DNA from: a virus | Taxonomy: Duplodnaviria; Heunggongvirae; Uroviricota; Caudoviricetes | IMG/VR virus record: IMGVR_UViG_2565956618_000002 | Strand: one strand, 5' to 3' | Length of the DNA: 13,348 bases | Shown: piece after piece, positions 557 to 13,348 of the stretch | Layout: every line of letters begins with the position of its first letter | How positions within the stretch are numbered: position 1 is the first letter of the stretch | Notes under the pieces: generated by a model | Databases searched by the model: none | The model's input: only the letters and a program-made list of their open reading frames with translations | What the model was told of the DNA's origin: nothing | Program-made: the position numbers and the translations under genes

Positions 557-886
557 CTATGCCACGACCTGTTCAAAATCTGCCGTTATGGTTACCCACA
601 GCGCCCCCACGCTTGCCGACCATTTACGACAAACCACCCTGATCGGTTTCCAGTCATAAGGTGGCGTCCACTGAAATGCACGGACGCCACCGTGCCGTTC
701 CAGAAAGGCTTTTAAAGATGGGTGGTCACATTTACGAACACGTATCGTCACGCTGTAAGTCGACAACTGGTTATTCAGTCCCGCCGCACGACGCTGTTCA
801 TAACCATCGCCCAGCTTCACTGTCACCACTTTCGGCTCTGATACCACATTCATATCCGGGCGCACTTTCCAGTGAAACGTCTCCAT
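557..886 (-). CDS. M: Minor tail protein M
   Basis: 109-aa ORF (METFHWKVRPDMNVV...WTPPYDW...FEQVVA), same length as lambda gpM and clearly homologous. Its ATG overlaps the H stop codon (TAATG). Confidence 0.92.
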   Translation of the reverse strand: METFHWKVRPDMNVVSEPKVVTVKLGDGYEQRRAAGLNNQLSTYSVTIRVRKCDHPSLKAFLERHGGVRAFQWTPPYDWKPIRVVCRKWSASVGALWVTITADFEQVVA

Positions 887-3800
887 TACCGATATGCTCC
901 ACTTAACCGACCACCATCACGGGCCTGCTGTTGCATAAAGTCCGCTGCCGCTTTTTTCCCGAGGTCATAAACCGCCTTCAGGGCAGCCGGACCTATCTGC
1001 CCGTTCGTGCCATCGTTATTGATCTCGATGTTGTACTGCGGGGCAAACATCGCCATACCTGAACCACCAATATCCGCCACAACCCCCAGCTTACCGTCAG
1101 CACCACGACGCAGTGGCAGAATGGCTTCAGGTCCCGCTTCCCCCATCACACCCGCGCCTTTTGCAAAAGCAAAAAACGTCGGACGGTTAACCACCGTGCC
1201 ACTGTAACGACTCAAATCAGCAGACTGATAAATCCCCCCATTGGCATTCAGGGAAAGGCTGCTGAGATCAAATCCCAGTACACTGCCAATCCCTTTTATC
1301 GATTTCATCATGGTTGCCTGCGCCAGGATTTTCGCCATATCTGACAGCACAGAAGAGGTGAAGGATTTGAAATTGAGTTTGCCGGTAGTGACAAAAGTTG
1401 CCAGGCCATTTCCCATGTTGCTGAAGGCTGACGAGAACACCTGTTCTGCTGTTCCTGCCGTATTATCTGCATCCACGGTAAAATTCTGAAATGCACGCAG
1501 GACTCCGTTTTTCCAGTTACCCTGCACAACTTCAAGCTGTTGCCAGTAACGGCGATTCTCATTCAGTTGTCGGTTCAGGCTCTCCGTCAGCGCCTGCTCG
1601 GCCTTTCTGTAGTCATCCGTGTTATATGTTCCTTTCTGCTCACTATCCCGCCTCAACTGCTCCAGCTGTTGCTGGTATTTCTGGCGAAGACTCAGTTGTA
1701 CCTGATATCGCTGCCGCTGCTGATCACCCATACCCACCGTGGCGATATCCAGGTCATGTTGCTGACGCTGAGCGCGCTCTTCTTCAGCCAGTTGACTGGT
1801 CAGCTGAATTGTTTTTTTCTTCAGCTCGTTGAGTGCCGTCTGTTTCTGAAGCTCCTGCTGTTTTACATCCAGCAGCGTCAGTGCCTGAATCAGTTCATCT
1901 TTACGGGCCAGCACACTCTTTTCATCTGCCGTCAGTTTTTTCCCGTCCAGGTCGCTGATGCGCTGCTGCAGAGCCAGAAGCTGTTTATGCGCTTCTGTCA
2001 TCCTTTCCGTGGCAATGCCTGCTGACTGTCTGGCAGCAGCAATCTGTCCTTCCACCTGTGCCTGTTGCTGACTGTACTGCAGCAATAACCGGGTGGCCTC
2101 ATCATTACGGGGTTCGCGTGTTTTTTTCTTACCGGATGCCAGGGCTTTCTCGTAACGTTCATTTTCACGTTGTATCGCCGCATCCCTGACAGCCTGATCG
2201 GCGTACTGCATGGAATTAATACGCGCAATTTCACGCTGATGTCGTGCTGCTTCCGTTTCATTCATCCGGTTCAGTGCAGCATTTTCAGCATTACGGCGTT
2301 TCTGTTGCTCCTGATAATTCTGCTCTGCCTGCTCTTTTGCATCCTGCAAATCCTTCTGGCGTTTTTTCTCCTGAAGCTCGTTAAGACGCTGCTGATCGTA
2401 CTCAACCTGAGAAGATGATGCCGTCCAGGGGAGTCTTTTCGCCCGCGACACTTTCTCCTGTAAAGCGGAAATCTGTTCATCCAGCGAGTCTTCACGACCA
2501 ATATTCATGGCCGCATCCCAGAAACGACTCCATAAATCAGACAGATACTTCAGCGTACTGCCCAGCGCATTGAGGTTATTATCAATATCCGCAGTACGCC
2601 GACCGGTTTCCTCTGCCAGTGCAGACATGGCTATCCGTGCCGCATCACTGGACCGCCCCTGTTCCCCAAGGACGCGTATCTGCTCAAGCTGAGTGGCAGT
2701 AAGAAAATGCAGCTCATTGTCCAGAGCCTTCGCGGCATTTACAGGATCATCCTTCAGCCGCTTAAACTGATTTATGGTATCGCTGACCGACTGGCCAACC
2801 GATCGCTCCATCTGTGCGGCAGCTCTCGCCACCATACCGATATCGTTTCCACGAAATGCACCACTCCCCACCACCTGAGCCAGCGCACCGGCTGCAGCAT
2901 GTTGCGTGATACCATTCCCGGAAATAGCACGACTGAGCGTCCACAGCTGCCCGGCAGTGACTCCGGCATAATGCCCCGTCAGCGACAACTGGCGGTTAAA
3001 TTCTTCCCCCTCCTTCTGACCATCATACCAGGCTTTACCCAGACCATAGACGGCCGCGGCAATACCGCCAATAACCCCGCCCAGCATCATGCCTTTCGGT
3101 GACATCAGTGTGTCTATCCATCCGGCACGGTTAGCCAGCGTTATCCCGGATCCCCTCAGCGCACCTAAATTGCCGCGAGCCAGTTCAACTATCAGAACGC
3201 CTATCTCCTGGCGGGCCGCTGCACTTTTCAGACCCAGCGAATGCGTGGCTTTTCCTGCCTGCTCCATTTTGCGGATATACACTTCTGCAGCACTGCTTAC
3301 CCCCAGCTGGGCAGCCTTAGCACGAAGCAACTCAGAAGAAGAAAGATTCTGGCGGGTTGCCTGCTCTTTAAGCTGACGGATAAACGCCACTTTCTGTCGG
3401 GTAGCCTCTTCCTCAGCCTGTGTAAGAACACGGGTTTTCGCAGTAACCTCAGAAATCAGCGCCAGATAATCCTGCTGACCAATCCCGCCACTGTTTCTGG
3501 CCTGTCGGATCTGCTGCTGAATACGCTGTAATTCCTGCAGCCCCGCACTGGCCTGTTTCACACTGTCAATCTGACGATAAAACGCAGCAGCCGCTTTATC
3601 CTGAGCCTCCGCCAGAGCCATGGCCTGCGCCTGTTCCTCGCGCATTTTCTGGCTCAGTGCCTCCATGCGCTGGCGGGTTTTCTCCACCTCGCGGGCCATG
3701 CGTTCATGAGCCTGTGCGTTCTTCTCCACCGTCTGCGCATGGACGGATGCGGCTGTTGCAGCCGAAGAAGCTGCCTGCGTTGTCTGCCGGGCGGCCTGAG

Positions 3801-3951
3801 TCTGACGCTCCATAAAACGCTGCATACGGGCAGAAGACCGTTCTGCATCGCTGGCTGCACCATTCAGAAGGTTTTTGATACGGGGAATTTCATTTTTAAA
3901 CTCTGCCGCATCAATCCCCAAATCAATGACCAGGTTGGCTATCTGGTCCAT
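886..3951 (-). CDS. H: Tail tape measure protein (lambda gpH-like), about 1021 aa
   Basis: Long ORF. N-terminus MDQIANLVIDLGIDAAEF resembles lambda H MAEPVGDLVVDLSLDAARF; C-terminus INNDGTNGQIGPAALKAVYD...RDGG closely matches the lambda H C-terminus; centre is Q/E/R/K-rich coiled coil. Start placed at ATG 3951 (GGAGG upstream); the track's 3981 start is a TTG extension. Confidence 0.9.
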   Translation of the reverse strand: MDQIANLVIDLGIDAAEFKNEIPRIKNLLNGAASDAERSSARMQRFMERQTQAARQTTQAASSAATAASVHAQTVEKNAQAHERMAREVEKTRQRMEALSQKMREEQAQAMALAEAQDKAAAAFYRQIDSVKQASAGLQELQRIQQQIRQARNSGGIGQQDYLALISEVTAKTRVLTQAEEEATRQKVAFIRQLKEQATRQNLSSSELLRAKAAQLGVSSAAEVYIRKMEQAGKATHSLGLKSAAARQEIGVLIVELARGNLGALRGSGITLANRAGWIDTLMSPKGMMLGGVIGGIAAAVYGLGKAWYDGQKEGEEFNRQLSLTGHYAGVTAGQLWTLSRAISGNGITQHAAAGALAQVVGSGAFRGNDIGMVARAAAQMERSVGQSVSDTINQFKRLKDDPVNAAKALDNELHFLTATQLEQIRVLGEQGRSSDAARIAMSALAEETGRRTADIDNNLNALGSTLKYLSDLWSRFWDAAMNIGREDSLDEQISALQEKVSRAKRLPWTASSSQVEYDQQRLNELQEKKRQKDLQDAKEQAEQNYQEQQKRRNAENAALNRMNETEAARHQREIARINSMQYADQAVRDAAIQRENERYEKALASGKKKTREPRNDEATRLLLQYSQQQAQVEGQIAAARQSAGIATERMTEAHKQLLALQQRISDLDGKKLTADEKSVLARKDELIQALTLLDVKQQELQKQTALNELKKKTIQLTSQLAEEERAQRQQHDLDIATVGMGDQQRQRYQVQLSLRQKYQQQLEQLRRDSEQKGTYNTDDYRKAEQALTESLNRQLNENRRYWQQLEVVQGNWKNGVLRAFQNFTVDADNTAGTAEQVFSSAFSNMGNGLATFVTTGKLNFKSFTSSVLSDMAKILAQATMMKSIKGIGSVLGFDLSSLSLNANGGIYQSADLSRYSGTVVNRPTFFAFAKGAGVMGEAGPEAILPLRRGADGKLGVVADIGGSGMAMFAPQYNIEINNDGTNGQIGPAALKAVYDLGKKAAADFMQQQARDGGRLSGAYR

Positions 3952-4650
3952 AACGCACACCTCCGGAAATACCTTCCCCAAGATGCATCAGTTCTTCGTC
4001 CGTTCGCTCCGGTATCCCGTTCTCTTCCGGTAAAAGGCTGAAATCAGCCACCGCAGCATCACTGCTACCGGACACCATTCTCACGATCAATGCCTTCAGC
4101 GAGGCAAACTGCGCATCCATCCACACATCACTGAAGCTCTGCATCCGGAAATAATCGCCCCACTCACCAAGCTCAGTGGCCGACATTTCCGACAGCATCC
4201 GCCGCCAGTCTGCCCGCCGGAACTCCCGGGCAAGCCGCATGACAAACTGCATTTCCCGCGTCAGGACTTTTCCGGCGTCAGCACCTCATGCTCCAAATCC
4301 CCGGCATTCTCAATGACTCCCATACCGCTCAGCGACAGAACCATCTCCGCCCCCGCTCCCAGGGCATCATACGACCATGTTGTAATAACGGATGCGCAAA
4401 GCGTCTCAACATCCTGAGACTGTTCCGCATTCCACAGTGAGCGGGAAACCAGCCAGGCATTGATATCCATCCCCATCCGCAGAAAAGCAATCTGTCGTTC
4501 AGCCTCCGGCAGTTCTCCCTCTTCGGCATCAAACTTTGCCGTTCGCTGCTGAACAAACGCCAGATATTCAATTCTCTGCAGCCCGGACAGCTCACTGAGC
4601 ACCACGGACTGCTTTTCATAATTAAACGTGCCCTGTTTCAGAAACATCAT
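3923..4650 (-). CDS. Tail assembly chaperone G-T fusion made by programmed -1 frameshift near the end of G
   Basis: The T-frame ORF (MQFVMRLAREFRR...) is open upstream through the G stop in the -1 frame. Reading GGA AAA GTC CTG ACG CGG GAA ATG CAG... joins the frames at the run GGAAAAG (plus-strand 4267..4273). Position and arrangement match lambda G/GT. Confidence 0.7.
4261..4650 (-). CDS. G: Tail assembly chaperone G
   Basis: MMFLKQGTFNYEKQSVVLSELSGLQRIEYLA... resembles lambda gpG (MFLKTESFEHNGVTVTLSELSALQRIEHLA...). ATG at 4650 with GGAG upstream; the track start at 4689 is a TTG extension. Confidence 0.85.
   Translation of the reverse strand: MMFLKQGTFNYEKQSVVLSELSGLQRIEYLAFVQQRTAKFDAEEGELPEAERQIAFLRMGMDINAWLVSRSLWNAEQSQDVETLCASVITTWSYDALGAGAEMVLSLSGMGVIENAGDLEHEVLTPEKS
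4267..4273 (-). other. Candidate -1 frameshift slippery site GGAAAAG
   Basis: Minus strand reads ACG CCG GAA AAG TCC TGA in the G frame; the T frame is GGA AAA GTC.... Lambda uses GGGAAAG at the equivalent place. Confidence 0.5.
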
Positions 4651-4662
4651 GTTCTCCACCTG

Positions 4663-4688
4663 CAAAAAAGCCCCGGATAACCGGGGCA
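4663..4688 (-). terminator. Candidate intrinsic terminator between V and G
   Basis: Minus strand reads GCCCCGG-TTAT-CCGGGGC followed by TTTTTTG: a 7-bp GC-rich stem, 4-nt loop and T-tract just after the V stop. Confidence 0.6.
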
Positions 4689-4707: not shown

Positions 4708-5451
4708 TTAACCTGCGGCGCTGACAGCCACCGCAGCCACTGCCACAAAATCGCCGTCAGAAGTCATGCCCACAATGCTGACACTGCCCTGCTTCACGCC
4801 TTTCACCGTGGCCACAAGCCCGTTCAGGGTCACCGTGGCAGTCTGTGGATCTGTCGAATGCACACTGATCGCTTTGTCACTGGCTCCGTCAGGTTTTACT
4901 GTAAAGGTCAGCGTGGTGGTTGCTCCCACTTTTACACTGGCAGATGCCGGTGCCACCGTCAGCCCGGTAACGCTCACTGTTTCAGTGCCTTCCTCTGCCA
5001 GATACGGACGCCCCACACCGCTGATTTTCACTGTGCGGGTCATCACGTCTTTTGAGGCAATGGTTTTACCCAGTGAGCTCAGCCAGCCACGGAAAACATC
5101 AACAGTGCCGTTGGGATATTTGATACGAAACGCGCAGACTTCACCGGAGTCGAACAACTGAACCAGTTTTTTCTGCCCGCTGTCACCCGGACGCCAGGCC
5201 AGCGTCGCCGAAGTATCACCGACGGATTTCTGCCCCTGGGTTGTCGTTTTCCAGTCTGCATCTTCATCATCGAGATAAGTGTCATCTTCTGCATCAGCGG
5301 TCATTTCGCCAGGTTGCAGATCCTTCACCATCGCAAGACGCAGCCAGTCAGTGTCCGATAAAGGGTTCGCAAACGCATCGCCCTTGCCGGTGTACATCCA
5401 GAACGTCGTTCCCGCACCTTTCGTTTTTGCCAGTGGATTTGGTGTGGTCAT
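4708..5451 (-). CDS. V: Major tail protein V with C-terminal Ig-like domain
   Basis: MTTPNPLAKTKGAGTTFWMYTGKGDAFANPLSDTDW...LDDEDADW...YPNGTVDVFRGW... closely matches lambda gpV. ATG at 5451 with AGGAGGT 5 nt upstream; the track start at 5457 is GTG. Confidence 0.93.
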   Translation of the reverse strand: MTTPNPLAKTKGAGTTFWMYTGKGDAFANPLSDTDWLRLAMVKDLQPGEMTADAEDDTYLDDEDADWKTTTQGQKSVGDTSATLAWRPGDSGQKKLVQLFDSGEVCAFRIKYPNGTVDVFRGWLSSLGKTIASKDVMTRTVKISGVGRPYLAEEGTETVSVTGLTVAPASASVKVGATTTLTFTVKPDGASDKAISVHSTDPQTATVTLNGLVATVKGVKQGSVSIVGMTSDGDFVAVAAVAVSAAG

Positions 5452-5462
5452 TGCCACCTCCT

Positions 5463-7128: not shown

Positions 7129-9087
7129 TTACGCCGTACATTTCACCAGACCGCGGTGATCAACTGGCGCGACACCGGCGTCAATACGCACTTTCGTTGT
7201 CACGCCATCCACACTGAAGCCCTCCATCTGATCAATATATGGCGTATCCACACCGTTGAGATAAGCCACTTCAATCGTATCGGAGCCTTTTGACGCAGCC
7301 AGGTAGAAGGTGGTCTGGCTGTTATCATCAAGACGAGGCTCTGCAATAACGGTCGCAAAATCTTTCACCGGGTTAATAATACCGGCGTTAATGTCAGCCC
7401 CCTTGACACTTGAGGAGCGAATGACCTGGTTAGCAACAGACTCCATCGCCGTCGGTACCAGTACGAACGCAGGACGAATATTCAGATGACGCTCCCCCTC
7501 TTTCTGAACGCGCATCAACTGGCGGGCTTTATCCAGCGATGCCACGTCCATTGCAGCGCTCTCCAGTACGTTTGCATGTTTCGCTTTATCGAACAGACTT
7601 ACATTATCTGTGGAGATTTTCGGGTTAGACGTCAGAATGGCATAAACCAGATCGGCAATAGTGGATTTCGCCGCACGGCCCAGTTTCATCGGGACATCGG
7701 TCAGCATATTCAGATCATCATTGATAATGGCCTGACGGGTGATACTGAACAGCTCGCCATAGGTCGCCAGTGCAATAGTGGCCTGTTTATCTCCGGTGGT
7801 GACGTATTTATATTCCGCCCCTTCACGCACCTGACGCAGAGCACTGAAGCCCCCCATACCCACACGATGGGCAATTTTAAAATCAGACAACTGACCTTTC
7901 CGCGTCCACTGTTCATAGGTTTCAGGGGCATCTTCCCAGCCCTGCAGAATGGCTTTGTTCGCAACATCCAGCAGAATATTACCGAAGTCAGACGTACTGT
8001 GTGTGAACGCCGCACCGACCATCTGCATCGGGTTATAACCGGAAACCCCAATACCCCGTTCAGTTAGTGACATACGGGCATATTCACGCAGGGTCATCCC
8101 GTTGTAGACATTATCACGTTCGGTTTTTTCAAATCCGGCACGCGCCATCAGCGCCTGGCGGATCCCGTCCCCCACAAAATTACCGTTACCGGCATAAATA
8201 TGAGCCGGGGTATTTTTATTGGATGGCGTGGACTCGCGCCCCATCTCGTTCAACAGCTTTTCACGGGCCTGCTCCAGCGAACATTCAGGATCGGCAAGAC
8301 ACTGGGCCTGCAGCATCTGATAACGCCCGCCAAACATGGCAAACAGATCATTAATACCGTTTACACGCGCTTTTTGCTCTGCCAGTACCTGCGCACGGAT
8401 ACTGTTTTCATCCACCACGGGTGCTGCTGCCTGCACTGGCGTCCGGGAGGCTGCAGGTTCATCATCCTGTACGCGTGGAGCACTGTTGCGTGGCGGAGTA
8501 ATCATGTTTCGAATGGATTCCGGCATCTTTTTAAATTCCTCTGTACGTTTTGACTGAATACATGCCATTGCCTTAACGGCTGGTGTCACCTGATCAGCAA
8601 ATCCCTGTGCCAGACATTCGGCACCGGACATCCAGGTCTCATCCGCCAGCATGGCAGCAATTTCATCGGTGGTTTTCCCGGTTTTCTGTGCATAAGCGGG
8701 TAACAGAACCGCCTCAACTTTATCGAGCAGGTCGGCATAGGTGCGCATGTCCTCCGCATCACCGCCCGTAAAGCCAAATGGTTTATGAATCATCATGAAG
8801 GAGTTTTCCGGCATAATGACCGGGTTTCCCACCATCGCAATGACCGACGCCATTGACGCCGCCACACCGTCGACATAAACGGTAATGGACGCACCATGTG
8901 TTTTCAGTGCATTAAAAATGGCGATGCCTTCAAAGACATCGCCACCCGGTGAATTAATATGGAGATTAATGTGGGTGATATCGCCCAGTGCATTCAGATC
9001 ACTGATAAACTGCTTCGCTGTAACACCCCAGAAACCAATCTCGTCATAAATATAAATATCCGCGTCACTCTGGTGACCTGCCTGCAT
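7129..9087 (-). CDS. Prohead protease (ClpP-like) fused in frame to an HK97-fold major capsid protein
   Basis: N-terminal part has ClpP-like motifs (IYIYDEIGFWGVTAKQFISDL, INSPGGDVFEGIAIFNA, GVAASMASVIAMVG, MIHKP); C-terminal ~340 aa has major-capsid character. Start tentatively ATG 9087 (MQAGHQSDADIYIY), about 652 aa; weak RBS, so the start is uncertain. Confidence 0.8.
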   Translation of the reverse strand: MQAGHQSDADIYIYDEIGFWGVTAKQFISDLNALGDITHINLHINSPGGDVFEGIAIFNALKTHGASITVYVDGVAASMASVIAMVGNPVIMPENSFMMIHKPFGFTGGDAEDMRTYADLLDKVEAVLLPAYAQKTGKTTDEIAAMLADETWMSGAECLAQGFADQVTPAVKAMACIQSKRTEEFKKMPESIRNMITPPRNSAPRVQDDEPAASRTPVQAAAPVVDENSIRAQVLAEQKARVNGINDLFAMFGGRYQMLQAQCLADPECSLEQAREKLLNEMGRESTPSNKNTPAHIYAGNGNFVGDGIRQALMARAGFEKTERDNVYNGMTLREYARMSLTERGIGVSGYNPMQMVGAAFTHSTSDFGNILLDVANKAILQGWEDAPETYEQWTRKGQLSDFKIAHRVGMGGFSALRQVREGAEYKYVTTGDKQATIALATYGELFSITRQAIINDDLNMLTDVPMKLGRAAKSTIADLVYAILTSNPKISTDNVSLFDKAKHANVLESAAMDVASLDKARQLMRVQKEGERHLNIRPAFVLVPTAMESVANQVIRSSSVKGADINAGIINPVKDFATVIAEPRLDDNSQTTFYLAASKGSDTIEVAYLNGVDTPYIDQMEGFSVDGVTTKVRIDAGVAPVDHRGLVKCTA

Positions 9088-9100
9088 CCTGAACCAGGAA

Positions 9101-10609
9101 TTATTCTTCGGACTGGTCGTCGGTGTGCTGCGGCTCCTGTCGTTTCGTTGCGGCACTGCTGCCTCCTTTATCACTGGCCGGATCGGTATCAAATACCAGA
9201 TCCAGCTTGCGGTTTTCATCAATTTCGGCCTTGCGCCGACGTTTGACATCATCCGGATTACGACCACCTGCACGTACCCAGTCTGATTCTGTCGCCGCTC
9301 CACCACGAATCTGAATTTTCCAGGCCTCAGCCTCCTTAACAGGGTCAATCCACGGCATCACCGGTCCGGAATACACCGCGGTATACAGTGAAGATCGGTC
9401 CAGATCGCGGGGTAGCCTGATAACACCGGATGCCACAGCCTGTTTCAGCCAGGCACGGTACATCGGGCGGGTGACGGCACCAATAAACCAGTCCTGCAGG
9501 ATCAGGTAGCCATCAGTAGATTCAACCAGCTCCTGACGCTGGGCGCTGTAAGTGCCGTTATAGTTGCGCGCTGTACTGGAAAAACTCAGACGACTGCCCG
9601 CAGCCACGGCACGCAACTGACCATTACGAAAAGTTTCAAGGTTAGGATTGGGGCGATCCGACTTCACCATTCCGATTTCTTCGCCGGGTTTCAGATCGTC
9701 GTAAATAATGCCTGGCTGAATGGTAAGCTCGCGTTCATTCTCCTTGCTGTCATTACCATCCGTTTCATAGCTCTGTCCGTCGCCTTTCCGGATGTACATC
9801 CCCAGAGCAGCGGCGATCCTTGCTGCAGTCAGCTCAGAATCTTCATACTCTTTCAGAGCACTGAGGCGGATCAGCACACCGGACAACAAAGACGTCCCGC
9901 GCATCTGGTGCAGACGGCGAACAAATTTAAGATGCAGCATTCGCTCTGCATCCACTTCTTTGGTTTCCATCTGCCGCCCGGATACGGGACGGCTTTTATA
10001 CACCAGATATTTTTCGGGACGCCCCCAGTCATCAACAAACACGCCCTGATTCAGCCTGTTGCTCTCATCACTGGTCATGGGAATAAAGTCCGGCTCGAGC
10101 GCCTCCAGCCAGAAATGAACACCGGCAGAAGGCGTCAAGCTGTTTATGCGCCCGGAAACCATCTGGGCAAACACCTCACCATCGCGCAGCCAGGTACGCA
10201 GCATCAGACGTTCCAGCATCGGACGGGTAAACTGCCCGGTGACTTCCGGACTGACAGACCATTCACTCCATCGGGTGCGTATCTCCGCTGCCAGATCACG
10301 GGCAATGGCCCCATTGCGTAATACCGGATGTGGCTCGACAATAATCCCGTTTTTCCCCACCACCCGTTCTTCCAGCTTGTCAAATACACCAATGACCAGA
10401 TCGTGGTTGTTATCAAGGTAACGGGCCTGCTCACGTAACGACACGGCCCCGTACTGGCTTAACTGGTCGGCAGTTCGGTTCTCCCGTCGGGCTTTGTGTG
10501 TCCGCGTCGTTTTTACGGCCTCATAAGCCTGAATCACCGCACGGGAACGCAGCCTTGCCGCTTTCCATCCTGGTGAAAAAACGCCAATCACATCATCAAG
10601 AATTGCCAT
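9101..10609 (-). CDS. Portal protein
   Basis: About 503-aa ORF between the gpW-like gene and the protease/capsid gene. ATG at 10609 overlaps the W stop (TGATG). Not similar to lambda gpB by eye, so the call rests on position and size. Confidence 0.8.
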   Translation of the reverse strand: MAILDDVIGVFSPGWKAARLRSRAVIQAYEAVKTTRTHKARRENRTADQLSQYGAVSLREQARYLDNNHDLVIGVFDKLEERVVGKNGIIVEPHPVLRNGAIARDLAAEIRTRWSEWSVSPEVTGQFTRPMLERLMLRTWLRDGEVFAQMVSGRINSLTPSAGVHFWLEALEPDFIPMTSDESNRLNQGVFVDDWGRPEKYLVYKSRPVSGRQMETKEVDAERMLHLKFVRRLHQMRGTSLLSGVLIRLSALKEYEDSELTAARIAAALGMYIRKGDGQSYETDGNDSKENERELTIQPGIIYDDLKPGEEIGMVKSDRPNPNLETFRNGQLRAVAAGSRLSFSSTARNYNGTYSAQRQELVESTDGYLILQDWFIGAVTRPMYRAWLKQAVASGVIRLPRDLDRSSLYTAVYSGPVMPWIDPVKEAEAWKIQIRGGAATESDWVRAGGRNPDDVKRRRKAEIDENRKLDLVFDTDPASDKGGSSAATKRQEPQHTDDQSEE

Positions 10610-10821: not shown

Positions 10822-12650
10822 AACCATCCTCCGGAAGTCAGCCAGGGGTTAACATCGTCAGTTACTGTTTTCTTCCGTTTTTGTTTTTTAACAGGCGTGG
10901 ATACCGGCTCCGGTGAGGGTGACGGTTCGGTACTGTCCGGGACACACTCCAGCCAGGTTTCCCGGCTCGCCCACTCCGGTGCATCCGGCCAGCGGATCTT
11001 TTCGTATCCATGCAGAATGACCAGCGCCTCGGCATACACCATCAGGTCAAAAGCTTCGTTGGCACCGCGACCCGGCTTACTCCATTTCCCGTCACTGCTC
11101 CGCTCTTCATACGTCAGTTCGTCGTAAAACCAGCTCCCCAGCCAGTCAGGGAAATGCACATAGCCTGGACCTGGCGAGTCACGCCATAACGCGTTATTCA
11201 CCCGGTCTTTCAGGGCATCCGTCTGAAGAAGCCAGAGCGGCACATCACCTGCGGCCTGCGCCCGGCGGCCCGTTCGTCCGGTGTTATCAGGGAATGTACG
11301 GCTGATCAGTTTTGCGCGCCGGATGCTGTCGCCCTTAAACAGGTAAATACGTTTACCAAGGCCATCACGACGGCAACGACGCCAGAATTTATAGGCATTA
11401 TCAGTGACCCCGTCTTCACCGCCGGAATCCACCGCCATTGCCATCAGTCGCATTTGTTGAGAAGGATCGGAGGCCAGCGGCCAGCTTTTATGAAAAACAT
11501 CCGTCAGCAGGACATCCCAGTCTTCCGGATAGCTGGCCGGATCAATTCGCTGGCTCTCCCCGTCGCAGTCACTGCGCAATGACTGCGTGATGTTGTAACG
11601 ATCAATAATCCAGCGTTCGCCACGGCTGCCATAGCCCGTTACCTGAACCACAAAACGGCGATGACGTCCCGCCTGCACATCCACTGTCGCCACAAGGAAA
11701 TTAACGCCATCCGGAACACTGCGGGAAGGAACTGGCTCTGCCCGCTGCTCAAGCAGTTCACTTTTTCGTTGCTCCATGCTGGCACGAGGAAGATAAGGCA
11801 ATCCCCAGTCGGTGTTGATAACCGCCCTGAGTGTTTCTTCGCTTCCTGTCGCTTCATACTCCTGTTCTGCAGTCAGTAATTTGTAAACCAGTTGCGCCCA
11901 GGTCTGATACGCAGCAGCTGGCCCTTCCATCCAGAAACTGGCGATACGGGAGCGGCGCGGTTCACCGGAAACGTTGCCGTTACGATCAATGACCTGACCT
12001 TCACGTAACCAGACTCCTGCACTATTGAGCTCACGCTTTTTCTCCGCAGTGATAATGCCGCTGCAGTGCGGGCAAAGTAGATACGCCGCCTCACTGGCTT
12101 TAAAGGGATCCGGTTCATTACGGTAGCCGGTCATGGCATCCATAGCTGGCTGAAAATATTCACCGCAGTGCGGACATGGCCAGTACCAGCGGCGGCGGTC
12201 ACCACGATTGTAAAGGGAAAGAATACCAGTCGTCGGTGGCGCTTCATGAGGCGACTTACGTCGCCATTTGCTGTCGCAGATGTCACGTCCCGGCGAGCTC
12301 TCCACCAGAGTCATCCCGGCGGACATAAATGTGGTGGTACGTTTTGAGGCCAGGGAGAAACCATCACCCTCGCTGTCGATATTCTCCGGAAAACGGTCGT
12401 AATCGGTTAAGGCGACAAACCGGTAATCCGACGACGACATAATGTTGACCGAGGGCCAACCAATTTTAAGGAACGAGCCATCCCTGAACGTCTTATCATG
12501 GACATTATTGTCGTTACGACGTGGACTCATTCTTTTCTTTACCGCCGCACTGCTTCTGAACGTTCTGTCGAGGCGCTTTTTAGAATGCTCGCGGGCCTTA
12601 TCTGATGCGCCGCGCGATAAATGCACTCTATCTTGTGCGATAAATGGCAT
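10818..12650 (-). CDS. Large terminase subunit (lambda gpA family), apparently 5'-truncated and possibly inactive
   Basis: 610-aa ORF with strong gpA-like regions (WPCPHCGEYF zinc-finger-like motif as lambda ACPHCGEE; VALTDYDRF near the lambda Walker B VAGYDE). No P-loop/Walker A motif is present, and similarity starts around lambda residue ~95-125. The frame is closed 30 bp below the invertase stop. Confidence 0.85.
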   Translation of the reverse strand: MPFIAQDRVHLSRGASDKAREHSKKRLDRTFRSSAAVKKRMSPRRNDNNVHDKTFRDGSFLKIGWPSVNIMSSSDYRFVALTDYDRFPENIDSEGDGFSLASKRTTTFMSAGMTLVESSPGRDICDSKWRRKSPHEAPPTTGILSLYNRGDRRRWYWPCPHCGEYFQPAMDAMTGYRNEPDPFKASEAAYLLCPHCSGIITAEKKRELNSAGVWLREGQVIDRNGNVSGEPRRSRIASFWMEGPAAAYQTWAQLVYKLLTAEQEYEATGSEETLRAVINTDWGLPYLPRASMEQRKSELLEQRAEPVPSRSVPDGVNFLVATVDVQAGRHRRFVVQVTGYGSRGERWIIDRYNITQSLRSDCDGESQRIDPASYPEDWDVLLTDVFHKSWPLASDPSQQMRLMAMAVDSGGEDGVTDNAYKFWRRCRRDGLGKRIYLFKGDSIRRAKLISRTFPDNTGRTGRRAQAAGDVPLWLLQTDALKDRVNNALWRDSPGPGYVHFPDWLGSWFYDELTYEERSSDGKWSKPGRGANEAFDLMVYAEALVILHGYEKIRWPDAPEWASRETWLECVPDSTEPSPSPEPVSTPVKKQKRKKTVTDDVNPWLTSGGWL

Positions 12651-12680
12651 CCACGCGGCGTTTCATTATTTGAAAAAGAA

Positions 12681-13253
12681 TTACATTTCAGGTTGCGTTA
12701 TGACAGTCCCAACAGGGTGATAGCGGTAGATCGTTGACAGTCCAATATCATAGATAATTGCCAGCCGCTTTCTGTCATACCCTTTCTGGAGCAATCTTGC
12801 GATCTGCTCATGCTGCTCCTTCGTCAGTTTCGGGCGACGTCCTCCAACTCTTCCTTGTGCTCGCGCAGCAGCCAGTCCTGCCAGCGTGCGCTCAACTATC
12901 AGTTCACGCTCCATTTCTGCCAGTGCACCCATCATATGAAAAAAGAACCTTCCCATCGGAGTGCTGGTATCGATTGAATCCGTCAGACTGCGAAAATTGA
13001 CACCTTTTGCGCGTAGCTCTTCTGTGAGAGCAATGAGGTGTTTCATTCTTCTACCCAACCGATCCAGCTTCCAGACCACCAATGTATCCCCTCTTTTAAG
13101 GCACTTTAAAGCGCGTTTCAGGCCTGGTCGTTCCGACTTGGTTCCGCTCATTTTGTCCTCAAAAATCTGTTCACATCCTGCGCACATTAATGCATTGCGT
13201 TGCAAATCTGTGTTTTGGTCATTTGTTGACACACGTATGTAGCCAATCAGCAT
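12681..13253 (-). CDS. pin: Serine DNA invertase of the Pin/Gin/Hin/Cin family
   Basis: MLIGYIRVSTNDQNTDLQRNALMCAGCEQIFEDK...GDTLVVWKLDRLGR...GRFFFHMMGALAEMERELIVERTLAGLAAARAQGR.GGRRPKLT... is almost co-linear with e14 Pin and Salmonella Hin as recalled; catalytic Ser in YIRVST. ATG at 13253; the track's extension to 13343 starts at a non-ATG codon and is not used. Confidence 0.93.
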   Translation of the reverse strand: MLIGYIRVSTNDQNTDLQRNALMCAGCEQIFEDKMSGTKSERPGLKRALKCLKRGDTLVVWKLDRLGRRMKHLIALTEELRAKGVNFRSLTDSIDTSTPMGRFFFHMMGALAEMERELIVERTLAGLAAARAQGRVGGRRPKLTKEQHEQIARLLQKGYDRKRLAIIYDIGLSTIYRYHPVGTVITQPEM

Positions 13254-13307
13254 TAAAAATACTCCCTTTTGAGTGGTTAAAGTACTGAGATAATGTGGGG
13301 AGGATTT

Positions 13308-13333
13308 GAGAGATAAACGTTGGTTTGGGGGAA
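13308..13333 (-). other. Candidate invertase crossover site (hix/gix-like), about 55 bp upstream of pin
   Basis: Minus strand reads TTCCCCCAAACCAACGTTTATCTCTC; it matches hixL (TTCTTGAAAACCAAGGTTTTTGATAA) at 15 of 26 positions, including the AAACC-AA-(G)GTTT core. The right half is diverged. Confidence 0.3.
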
Positions 13334-13348
13334 GGCTCTGCATTGCCT

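What the first reader, a model, noticed from the sequence alone, without database searches (positions are those of the whole stretch)
4255..4290. G/G-T frameshift is retained but on a non-canonical heptamer (GGAAAAG rather than GGGAAAG)
The T frame is open through the G stop in the -1 frame, so a G-T fusion is expected as in lambda. The slip site three codons before the G stop is G-GAA-AAG. A -1 shift would place the P-site tRNA on GGA with a G:U pair in the middle position, or slippage may rest on lysyl-tRNA at A-AAG alone. This may set a different G to G-T ratio from lambda.
Basis: partly seen in the sequence, partly recalled or inferred. Interest (0 to 1): 0.5.

Follow-up and report, generated by a model that had tools for sequence, protein, structure and literature searches.

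The report
Tail-chaperone G/GT frameshift site, GGAAAAG type
This is the usual programmed -1 ribosomal frameshift that makes the G-T tail-assembly chaperone of lambda-like phages, here on the heptamer G_GAA_AAG, which differs from lambda's but is already annotated in phage N15 and is the commonest slip site in my sample of this gene family, so it is real but ordinary.

Summary
On the minus strand, gene G (Phage_TAC_2) ends at TGA 4263-4261. The T frame (Phage_tail_T) is -1 relative to G and opens only after its own TGA at 4288-4286. A shift into T must therefore occur within 22 nt, and G_GAA_AAG (4273-4267) is the only slippery motif there.

- The GenBank record of phage N15 labels this same heptamer, at the homologous place, as the "slippery sequence for -1 translational frameshift".
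- Gifsy-2 is annotated as a G+T frameshift hybrid.
- Among 88 unique G-T junctions collected here, 73 carry GGAAAAG and 12 carry lambda's GGGAAAG.
- Heptamer positions 1, 2 and 4-6 never vary. The preceding codon varies (GCG, CCG, CTG, TTG) but always ends in G.
- T has no conserved start codon.
- This cassette is present in 1841 of 5426 complete E. coli genomes.

One added lead: a Shine-Dalgarno-like GAGG lies exactly 10 nt upstream in the window, and in 9 of 19 related "short-tail" lineages. None of the 26 N15-type, lambda-type or canonical-heptamer lineages has it. I found no downstream RNA structure. The frameshift efficiency has not been measured.

The parts
4267..4273 (-). Slip heptamer G_GAA_AAG. 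The zero-frame codons are GAA and AAG; the -1 frame codons are GGA and AAA.
   Evidence: Sequence. Identical heptamer in 73 of 88 unique homologous junctions. The same heptamer is annotated as the slippery sequence in N15.
4261..4650 (-). Gene G, tail assembly chaperone: 129 aa from ATG 4650, or 128 aa from ATG 4647. Stop TGA at 4263-4261.
   Evidence: Pfam PF06894 Phage_TAC_2, E=7e-40. RefSeq annotates the same gene in E. coli genomes as gpG, phage tail assembly chaperone G.
3923..4285 (-). T reading frame, -1 relative to G. After the shift, decoding resumes at GTC 4267-4265 and adds 114 aa up to the stop at 3925-3923. The predicted GT fusion is about 242 aa.
   Evidence: Translation. Pfam PF06223 Phage_tail_T, E=4e-15.
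4286..4288 (-). TGA in the T frame, which sets the upstream limit of the 22-nt shift window.
   Evidence: Translation of the three frames.
4282..4287 (-). Shine-Dalgarno-like GAGGTG. Its GAGG core (4287-4284) is followed by a 10-nt spacer and then the heptamer. It is a candidate 5' stimulator of the frameshift (inference).
   Evidence: Predicted anti-SD duplex of -9.2 kcal/mol. GAGG at a 10-nt spacer in 9 of 19 short-tail lineages with non-canonical heptamers, and in 0 of 26 other lineages. SD-like stimulators of -1 shifts act at 9-14 nt (PMC5009743).
4250..4252 (-). Internal ATG that public annotations use as the start of T. It is probably not a real start.
   Evidence: Annotated as the T start in mEp460 and by PGAP. 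The Met is replaced by I, L, R, K, T, S, N, H, V or E in relatives, and no usable SD lies upstream.
886..3951 (-). Tape measure protein gene (H-like), which overlaps the end of T.
   Evidence: Pfam TMP_2, Tape_meas_lam_C and TMP_4.
4708..5457 (-). Major tail tube protein gene (V-like), with a C-terminal Big_2 domain.
   Evidence: Pfam Phage_TTP_12, E=6e-67, plus Big_2.

Best explanation
A small fraction of ribosomes translating gene G slip back one nucleotide on G_GAA_AAG (4273-4267, minus strand). They do so with tRNA-Glu in the P site and tRNA-Lys in the A site. tRNA-Lys moves from AAG to the cognate AAA. tRNA-Glu moves from GAA to GGA, keeping its first- and third-position pairs and accepting a G:U at the middle position. 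Decoding then continues at GTC in the T frame. The product is a G-T fusion of about 242 aa (...LTPEK-VLTREMQF...) made alongside a large excess of the 129-aa G protein.

As in lambda, the G part would bind the tape measure protein and the T part would recruit the major tail protein. That functional step is inferred from homology. In this sub-clade a Shine-Dalgarno-like GAGG 10 nt upstream may raise the slip rate by pairing with 16S rRNA. That step is also an inference.
For: Shown here:
- Lambda-like gene order, with G = PF06894 and T = PF06223.
- T is -1 relative to G and open for only 22 nt before the G stop, and GGAAAAG is the only slip-capable motif in that stretch.
- The G C-terminus P-E-K is invariant after a hypervariable linker in 23 aligned homologs of 53-89% identity.
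- At the nucleotide level, 73 of 88 unique junctions carry GGAAAAG and 12 carry GGGAAAG. Positions 1, 2 and 4-6 are invariant. The preceding codon is GCG, CCG, CTG or TTG, always ending in G.
- Canonical and non-canonical heptamers occur at the same alignment position. Each of the two GGGAAAG groups has a GGAAAAG lineage as its nearest relative, which points to repeated G/A switching at position 3.
- The T-frame peptide is conserved from the slip site onward, and no start codon is conserved.
- The N15 record marks GGAAAAG as the slippery sequence, and Gifsy-2 is annotated as a G+T frameshift hybrid.
- GAGG lies 10 nt upstream in 9 of 19 related short-tail lineages, and the Glu codon there is GAG in every one. 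This spacing is within the 9-14 nt range reported for -1 stimulators.
Against: No protein or reporter data exist for this site. In a reconstituted E. coli system, AUG GAA AAG gave mainly zero-frame product with wild-type EF-G, and its authors called it unfavourable for slippage (PMC6924986). Tetramer-type A_AAG sites without a stimulator are barely above background in vivo (PMC4066793).

I found no downstream RNA structure: the z-score was 0.08, and the consensus fold was weak with little covariation. Twenty N15-type lineages use the same heptamer with no SD-like element, so the SD cannot be a general requirement. GAGG could also simply reflect Glu-rich linker coding.

The prophage in the window appears truncated at its terminase end, so this particular copy may not be expressed.
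Confidence: 0.85

Rival explanations
1. The frameshift is the same, but only tRNA-Lys slips, on the tetramer A_AAG (a hexanucleotide NNA_AAG type, as in B. subtilis cdd or IS1222). The P-site tRNA-Glu does not re-pair productively.
For: [quoted passage not shown] NNA_AAG sites are known natural shift sites. Family members with GCA as the P-site codon exist: GGCAAAG in L220 and GGCAAAA followed by TAG in L107, L108 and L293. In those, P-site re-pairing would be much poorer.
Against: Heptamer position 1 is G in all 88 unique junctions, although it is the third base of four different codons (GCG, CCG, CTG, TTG), while neighbouring third positions vary. That G pairs with C36 of tRNA-Glu, tRNA-Gly and tRNA-Ala in the -1 frame, so selection appears to act on P-site re-pairing. 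Tetramers alone are barely shifty without a strong 3' stimulator, and no such stimulator is found here.
Confidence: 0.25
2. T is made as a separate protein from the internal ATG at 4252, as current annotations show, and there is no frameshift.
For: Ayreon, mEp460, cdtI and RefSeq PGAP all annotate T as a separate CDS, and mEp460 and PGAP start it at this ATG.
Against: The Met is not conserved: it is I, L, R, K, T, S, N, H, V or E in relatives, and some relatives such as Gifsy-2 have no Met within the first 25 T-frame codons. The only purine-rich run upstream (GGGAA) lies 0-1 nt from the ATG, and the GAGGTG is about 29 nt away. The T-frame peptide is conserved upstream of the ATG, right up to the slip site. 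Lambda T is known to be made only as the GT fusion (PMC5009743).
Confidence: 0.05
3. The fusion arises from RNA polymerase slippage (transcript editing) on the A run rather than from ribosomal slippage.
For: The heptamer contains an A4 run.
Against: From general knowledge, and not tested here, productive transcriptional slippage needs runs of about 7 or more A or T. The conserved features (G at position 1, AAG rather than AAA at the end) fit tRNA re-pairing and not run length.
Confidence: 0.01

Closest known systems
Phage N15 genes 14/15 (NC_001901), annotated slippery sequence GGAAAAG at 10027-10033
   Same: It has the identical heptamer, in the same frame (GCG GAA AAG), at the homologous position of a homologous G/T pair (G is 33% identical and both are Phage_TAC_2). 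The T N-terminus follows the same pattern, GK[A/V]L..E..F.
   Different: The preceding codon is GCG (Ala) rather than CCG (Pro). The zero-frame stop lies five codons after the heptamer rather than one. There is no SD-like element 5-12 nt upstream.
Phage lambda G / G-T programmed -1 frameshift (G_GGA_AAG; Levin, Hendrix and Casjens 1993; Xu, Hendrix and Duda 2004, 2013, 2014, as cited in PMC5009743)
   Same: It has the same gene order, the same protein families, the same slip position in the alignment and the same A-site event (AAG to AAA). It is expected to give a low-level fusion with the same role in tail assembly.
   Different: Heptamer position 3 is A rather than G. The P-site tRNA is therefore tRNA-Glu, which must accept a middle-position G:U, rather than tRNA-Gly re-pairing cognately. 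The overlap is 22 nt rather than 61 nt. A GAGG lies 10 nt upstream here and is absent in lambda.
Salmonella prophage Gifsy-2 STM1039 / STM1041.1n
   Same: G is 55-57% identical. The junction CCG GAA AAG TCC TGA is identical. GAGG lies 10 nt upstream. The depositors annotated it as part of a G+G' frameshift hybrid protein.
   Different: The linker sequence differs, and Gifsy-2 has no Met at all near the T N-terminus.
E. coli dnaX and NNA_AAG hexanucleotide sites (B. subtilis cdd, IS1222)
   Same: All use a -1 shift ending in A_AAG decoded by the single tRNA-Lys. dnaX has an upstream SD-like stimulator at about 10 nt.
   Different: dnaX uses A_AAA_AAG and needs a 3' stem-loop. No 3' structure is detectable here. 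These are unrelated genes, so the comparison concerns mechanism only.

Membership tests
Lambda-type G/GT tail assembly chaperone with programmed -1 frameshift | Two overlapping ORFs lie between the major tail protein gene and the tape measure gene. | tested here: met
   The order is V 5457-4708, G 4650-4261, T frame 4285-3923, tape measure 3951-886, all on the minus strand.
Lambda-type G/GT tail assembly chaperone with programmed -1 frameshift | The upstream ORF is a gpG-family chaperone and the downstream ORF is a gpT-family domain. | tested here: met
   PF06894 at E=7e-40 and PF06223 at E=4e-15.
Lambda-type G/GT tail assembly chaperone with programmed -1 frameshift | The downstream ORF is in the -1 frame and has no conserved start codon of its own. 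| tested here: met
   Frame analysis. The first Met of the T frame is variable or absent in 38 distinct T N-termini.
Lambda-type G/GT tail assembly chaperone with programmed -1 frameshift | A conserved slippery sequence lies inside the overlap. | tested here: met
   GGAAAAG is the only candidate in the 22-nt overlap. Positions 1, 2 and 4-6 are invariant in 88 unique junctions.
Lambda-type G/GT tail assembly chaperone with programmed -1 frameshift | A GT fusion protein is made at a few percent of G and is needed for tail assembly. | not testable with these tools
   This needs a reporter assay, mass spectrometry or genetics.
Canonical X_XXY_YYZ slippery heptamer | Positions 1-3 are identical and positions 4-6 are identical, so both tRNAs re-pair cognately or by third-position wobble. 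| tested here: not met
   Positions 1-3 are G, G, A. The P-site tRNA-Glu would face GGA with a second-position G:U, as Peng et al. state for this sequence.
N15-type GGAAAAG slip site | The heptamer G_GAA_AAG, in frame, is at the homologous G/T junction. | tested here: met
   The N15 misc_feature equals GGAAAAG. The junctions align at the same columns.
Single-tRNA A_AAG / NNA_AAG hexanucleotide sites (cdd, IS1222) | A_AAG is in frame, and the 5' codon is read by a tRNA with extended wobble. | tested here: inconclusive
   A_AAG is present in frame. The wobble behaviour of tRNA-Glu on GAA could not be tested, and the primary paper (Licznar 2003) was not available. Conservation of position 1 argues for involvement of the P-site tRNA.
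dnaX-type stimulated -1 frameshift | An SD-like sequence lies 9-14 nt 5' of the shift site. | tested here: inconclusive
   GAGG(TG) with a 10-nt spacer is present and is positionally enriched in the sub-clade, at 9 of 19 against 0 of 26 lineages. Its function is untested, and N15-type relatives lack it.
dnaX-type stimulated -1 frameshift | A stable stem-loop or pseudoknot lies 5-9 nt 3' of the shift site. | tested here: not met
   The 87 nt downstream fold no better than shuffled sequence (z=0.08). The alignment fold is -9.2 kcal/mol with a covariation term of -0.78.

The most novel reading that the evidence does not exclude
In the cdtI/Gifsy-type sub-clade, which includes this window, the weak heptamer G_GAA_AAG may be paired with a dedicated 5' stimulator. 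This would be a Shine-Dalgarno-like GAGG held exactly 10 nt upstream inside an otherwise hypervariable linker. The phage G-T signal would then be a two-part, dnaX-like signal rather than a bare heptamer as in lambda. Separately, the invariant G at position 1 would mean that both tRNAs slip, with a tolerated second-position G:U in the P site. That is contrary to the in-vitro view that only tRNA-Lys can slip on this sequence.
Probability: 0.3. Interest if true: 0.4.

Novelty: already known. Interest (0 to 1): 0.2.

Why it matters
The main value is practical. This G-T cassette is in about a third of complete E. coli genomes. Phage records and RefSeq annotate T as a free-standing gene starting at a non-conserved ATG. 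The likely real product, a G-T fusion of about 242 aa made by a -1 shift at GGAAAAG, is therefore missing from protein databases. Searches limited to canonical X_XXY_YYZ motifs, such as the enterobacterial screen in PMC4066793, cannot find it.

For frameshifting specialists there is a modest point. Biochemists use this sequence as a poorly slippery control, yet it is the conserved natural slip site of a large phage gene family. The family offers natural G, A and C variants at heptamer position 3, and sub-clades with and without an upstream SD-like element. Together these form a ready comparative series for testing how P-site mismatches and 5' stimulators set low frameshift rates.

Tried and rejected
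- Downstream stimulatory structure: rejected. The single-sequence fold has z=0.08, and the alignment fold of 8 diverse relatives is weak with almost no covariation.
- Other slip sites in the overlap: none of the in-frame heptamers in 4285-4264 other than GGAAAAG allows A-site re-pairing.
- Independent T initiation: rejected because the Met is not conserved and there is no SD at a usable distance.
- Transcriptional slippage: rejected because the A run is only 4 nt (general knowledge, not tested here).
- SD-like GAGG as a universal partner of GGAAAAG: rejected, because 20 N15-type lineages lack it. It is kept only as a sub-clade-specific lead.
- Nearby zero-frame stop as a stimulator: considered and not supported. 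Its position follows the conserved T-frame residues (K-V-L-T against K-A-L-A), and it lies 0, 1 or 5 codons after the heptamer in different clades.
- Literature: full-text searches for GGAAAAG or "GAA AAG" together with slippery, frameshift or phage found no phage paper discussing this heptamer. Licznar et al. 2003, which holds the NNA_AAG data, is not held. Xu et al. 2004 could not be read, so whether it lists this heptamer is unverified.
- Collection scans: the genome-contig scan returned only 11 loci. The metagenome scan returned mostly E. coli-type duplicates and only one new distinct junction sequence, L404.

Full report
**What is there.** The window is the late (head and tail) region of a lambdoid E. 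coli prophage, with all genes on the minus strand. The order is: terminase large subunit, portal, ClpP-protease/capsid fusion, head-tail joining proteins, Z, U, major tail protein V (5457-4708), G, T, tape measure (3951-886) and M. The 821 bases around the finding are 99.6% identical to phage Ayreon and about 98% identical to phages cdtI and mEp460. The same cassette, at 95% identity or more, is present in 1841 of 5426 complete E. coli genomes, including O157:H7.

**Check of the observation.** G (Pfam Phage_TAC_2, E=7e-40) runs from ATG 4650 (a second ATG is at 4647) to TGA 4263-4261. It ends ...GAG GTG CTG ACG CCG GAA AAG TCC TGA. The T frame (Phage_tail_T, E=4e-15) is -1 relative to G. It is closed by TGA at 4288-4286 and then open down to the stop at 3925-3923. 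A ribosome can pass from G into T only within 4285-4264, a stretch of 22 nt. The only in-frame motif there on which an A-site tRNA can re-pair is G_GAA_AAG at 4273-4267. GGAAAAG as a bare string is not unusual (5 in the window against 2.0 expected). The signal lies in its frame, its position and its conservation.

**Conservation.** Homologous G proteins at 53-100% identity from E. coli, Shigella and Salmonella all end in P-E-K-(S/P/F)-stop. This follows a linker of about 20 residues that cannot even be aligned between clades. I collected 437 loci from viral, genome and metagenome collections and from annotated phages. They gave 88 unique 82-nt junction contexts.
- 73 contexts carry GGAAAAG, 12 carry lambda's GGGAAAG, 2 carry GGCAAAA followed by TAG, and 1 carries GGCAAAG. 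A further lineage, outside these 88, carries GGAAAAA followed by TAG.
- Heptamer positions 1, 2, 4, 5 and 6 never vary.
- The codon that supplies position 1 is GCG (Ala), CCG (Pro), CTG or TTG (Leu) in different clades, and it always ends in G. The third positions of the two codons before it vary freely.
- That G is what lets C36 of the P-site tRNA (Glu, Gly or Ala) keep its first-position pair after the shift. The pattern therefore argues that the P-site tRNA takes part in the slip.
- By pairwise identity, the lambda/Stx group (GGGAAAG) is closest to N15 (GGAAAAG). The Serratia/Symbiopectobacterium GGGAAAG group is closest to a GGAAAAG Symbiopectobacterium lineage. Position 3 has therefore probably switched between G and A more than once. 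This rests on identities, not on a formal phylogeny.

**T is not a free-standing gene.** The T-frame peptide is conserved from the slip site itself, as GK[V/A/I][L/F/A/I]xx[E/Q]xxF..LAREF.R.DWR.ML, across 38 distinct N-termini. The Met encoded at 4252 is I, L, R, K, T, S, N, H, V or E in relatives. The next Met position is L, R, Y or F in some relatives. In the window the only purine-rich run before the ATG sits right against it. This matches lambda, where T is made only as the GT fusion (review PMC5009743).

**Comparison with what is known.**
- The GenBank record of phage N15 carries a misc_feature "slippery sequence for -1 translational frameshift" at 10027-10033. Its sequence is GGAAAAG, read as GCG GAA AAG, and it sits at the homologous G/T junction.
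- Gifsy-2, whose G is about 55% identical and whose junction CCG GAA AAG TCC TGA is identical, is annotated as part of a G+G' frameshift hybrid protein.
- The heptamer is therefore non-canonical relative to lambda and to the X_XXY_YYZ rule, but it is an already recognised slip site. In my sample it is the majority type of the family.
- The nearest phage records and RefSeq still annotate G and T as separate genes.

**Mechanism.** The best-supported mechanism is a tandem -1 slip. tRNA-Lys moves from AAG to AAA. tRNA-Glu moves from GAA to GGA, with a G:U at the middle position.
- Peng et al. 2019 used exactly G GAA AAG in a reconstituted E. coli system as the less slippery comparison to G GGA AAG. 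With wild-type EF-G they obtained mainly zero-frame product, and they stated the second-position mismatch explicitly.
- Sharma et al. 2014 found A_AAG-type tetramers barely above background without a strong 3' stimulator.
- Lambda needs only about a 30:1 ratio of G to GT, so a weak site could be sufficient.
- I looked for stimulators. The 87 nt downstream fold no better than shuffled sequence (z=0.08), and an alignment of eight diverse relatives gives a weak consensus with almost no covariation.
- Upstream, the window has GAGGTG (4287-4282). Its GAGG core is exactly 10 nt from the heptamer, and the predicted duplex with the 16S rRNA 3' end is -9.2 kcal/mol.
- I grouped the junctions into 45 lineages, merging sequences that differ at 8 or fewer of the 67 positions compared. 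GAGG at this spacer occurs in 9 of 19 "short-tail" lineages with non-canonical heptamers. It occurs in 0 of 26 other lineages (N15-type, lambda-type and canonical short-tail).
- In the earlier 17-lineage grouping, the spacer-10 position held 8 GAGG, and no other position had more than 3. The Glu codon at that position is GAG in all carrying lineages, and the following codon always starts with G.
- The reported working distance of SD-like stimulators of -1 shifts is 9-14 nt.
- This makes a 5' stimulator plausible for this sub-clade. The lineages are not independent, the linker is Glu-rich anyway, and the N15-type lineages do without it. I rate it as a lead, not a finding.

**Rivals.**
- Slippage of tRNA-Lys alone is the main alternative for the fine mechanism. 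The existence of GCA-containing variants favours it. The invariant G at position 1 argues against it.
- Independent initiation of T and transcriptional slippage are both unlikely, for the reasons given above.
- This particular copy may be silent. At about 12603 the terminase gene is joined to a Hin/Pin-type invertase gene and lacks its 5' end, so the prophage looks defective. The G-T region itself is nevertheless intact and near-identical to that of viable phages.

**Verdict.** The finding is a correct reading of a known phenomenon on a known variant heptamer. The useful by-products are a family-wide table of slip-site variants, evidence that heptamer position 1 is under selection, a candidate upstream SD-like stimulator restricted to one sub-clade, and the note that public annotation of T in this very common cassette is probably wrong.

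Noticed in passing
window 12603-13348 (minus strand), junction near 12603: A Hin/Pin-type serine invertase gene (Resolvase plus HTH_7, 220 aa) directly abuts the cdtI-like terminase large subunit. The terminase begins only at cdtI nt 1047 and lacks about 50 N-terminal residues of the GpA ATPase profile. The invertase segment is 99.6% identical to a different phage type (503046 / P88-like, where it sits next to a tail fibre gene). The prophage in the window therefore looks rearranged or truncated.
   Followed up: partly
window 4670-4687 (minus strand): An intrinsic-terminator-like hairpin, GCCCCGG-TTAT-CCGGGGC followed by T6, lies between the major tail gene V and G. Ayreon, mEp460 and N15 annotate a terminator at the same place. 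It may lower G, T and H expression relative to V.
   Followed up: partly
window 7132-9348 (minus strand): A single 739-aa ORF combines a ClpP-type protease domain (residues 95-255) with an HK97-like capsid domain (residues 441-736). This is a protease-capsid fusion of the kind seen in some lambdoid phages. The ORF as listed also overlaps the portal ORF by about 250 nt, so the true start is probably further downstream.
   Followed up: no
L220 (N15-like viral contig); L107, L108, L293; L291: Rare slip-site variants occur at the homologous position: GCG GCA AAG (L220), CTG GCA AAA TAG (L107, L108, L293) and CTG GAA AAA TAG (L291). In the GCA variants the P-site tRNA could keep only its first-position pair. 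In the Providencia-like clade the zero-frame stop follows the heptamer immediately.
   Followed up: partly
proteins P0031 and P0046 (homolog search): Two database proteins of 212-215 aa are in-frame G-T fusions created by internal deletions in single contigs. P0046 reads ...WSYDA-GKVLTREMQF..., joining directly into the T frame at the slip-site codons.
   Followed up: no
window 4264-4285 versus N15 and lambda junctions: The zero-frame stop of G lies 0, 1 or 5 codons after the heptamer in different clades. In L091 the stop is kept one codon after the heptamer although the nucleotides differ (TAT TAA against TCC TGA). This may only reflect the conserved T-frame Leu codon followed by an A.
   Followed up: partly
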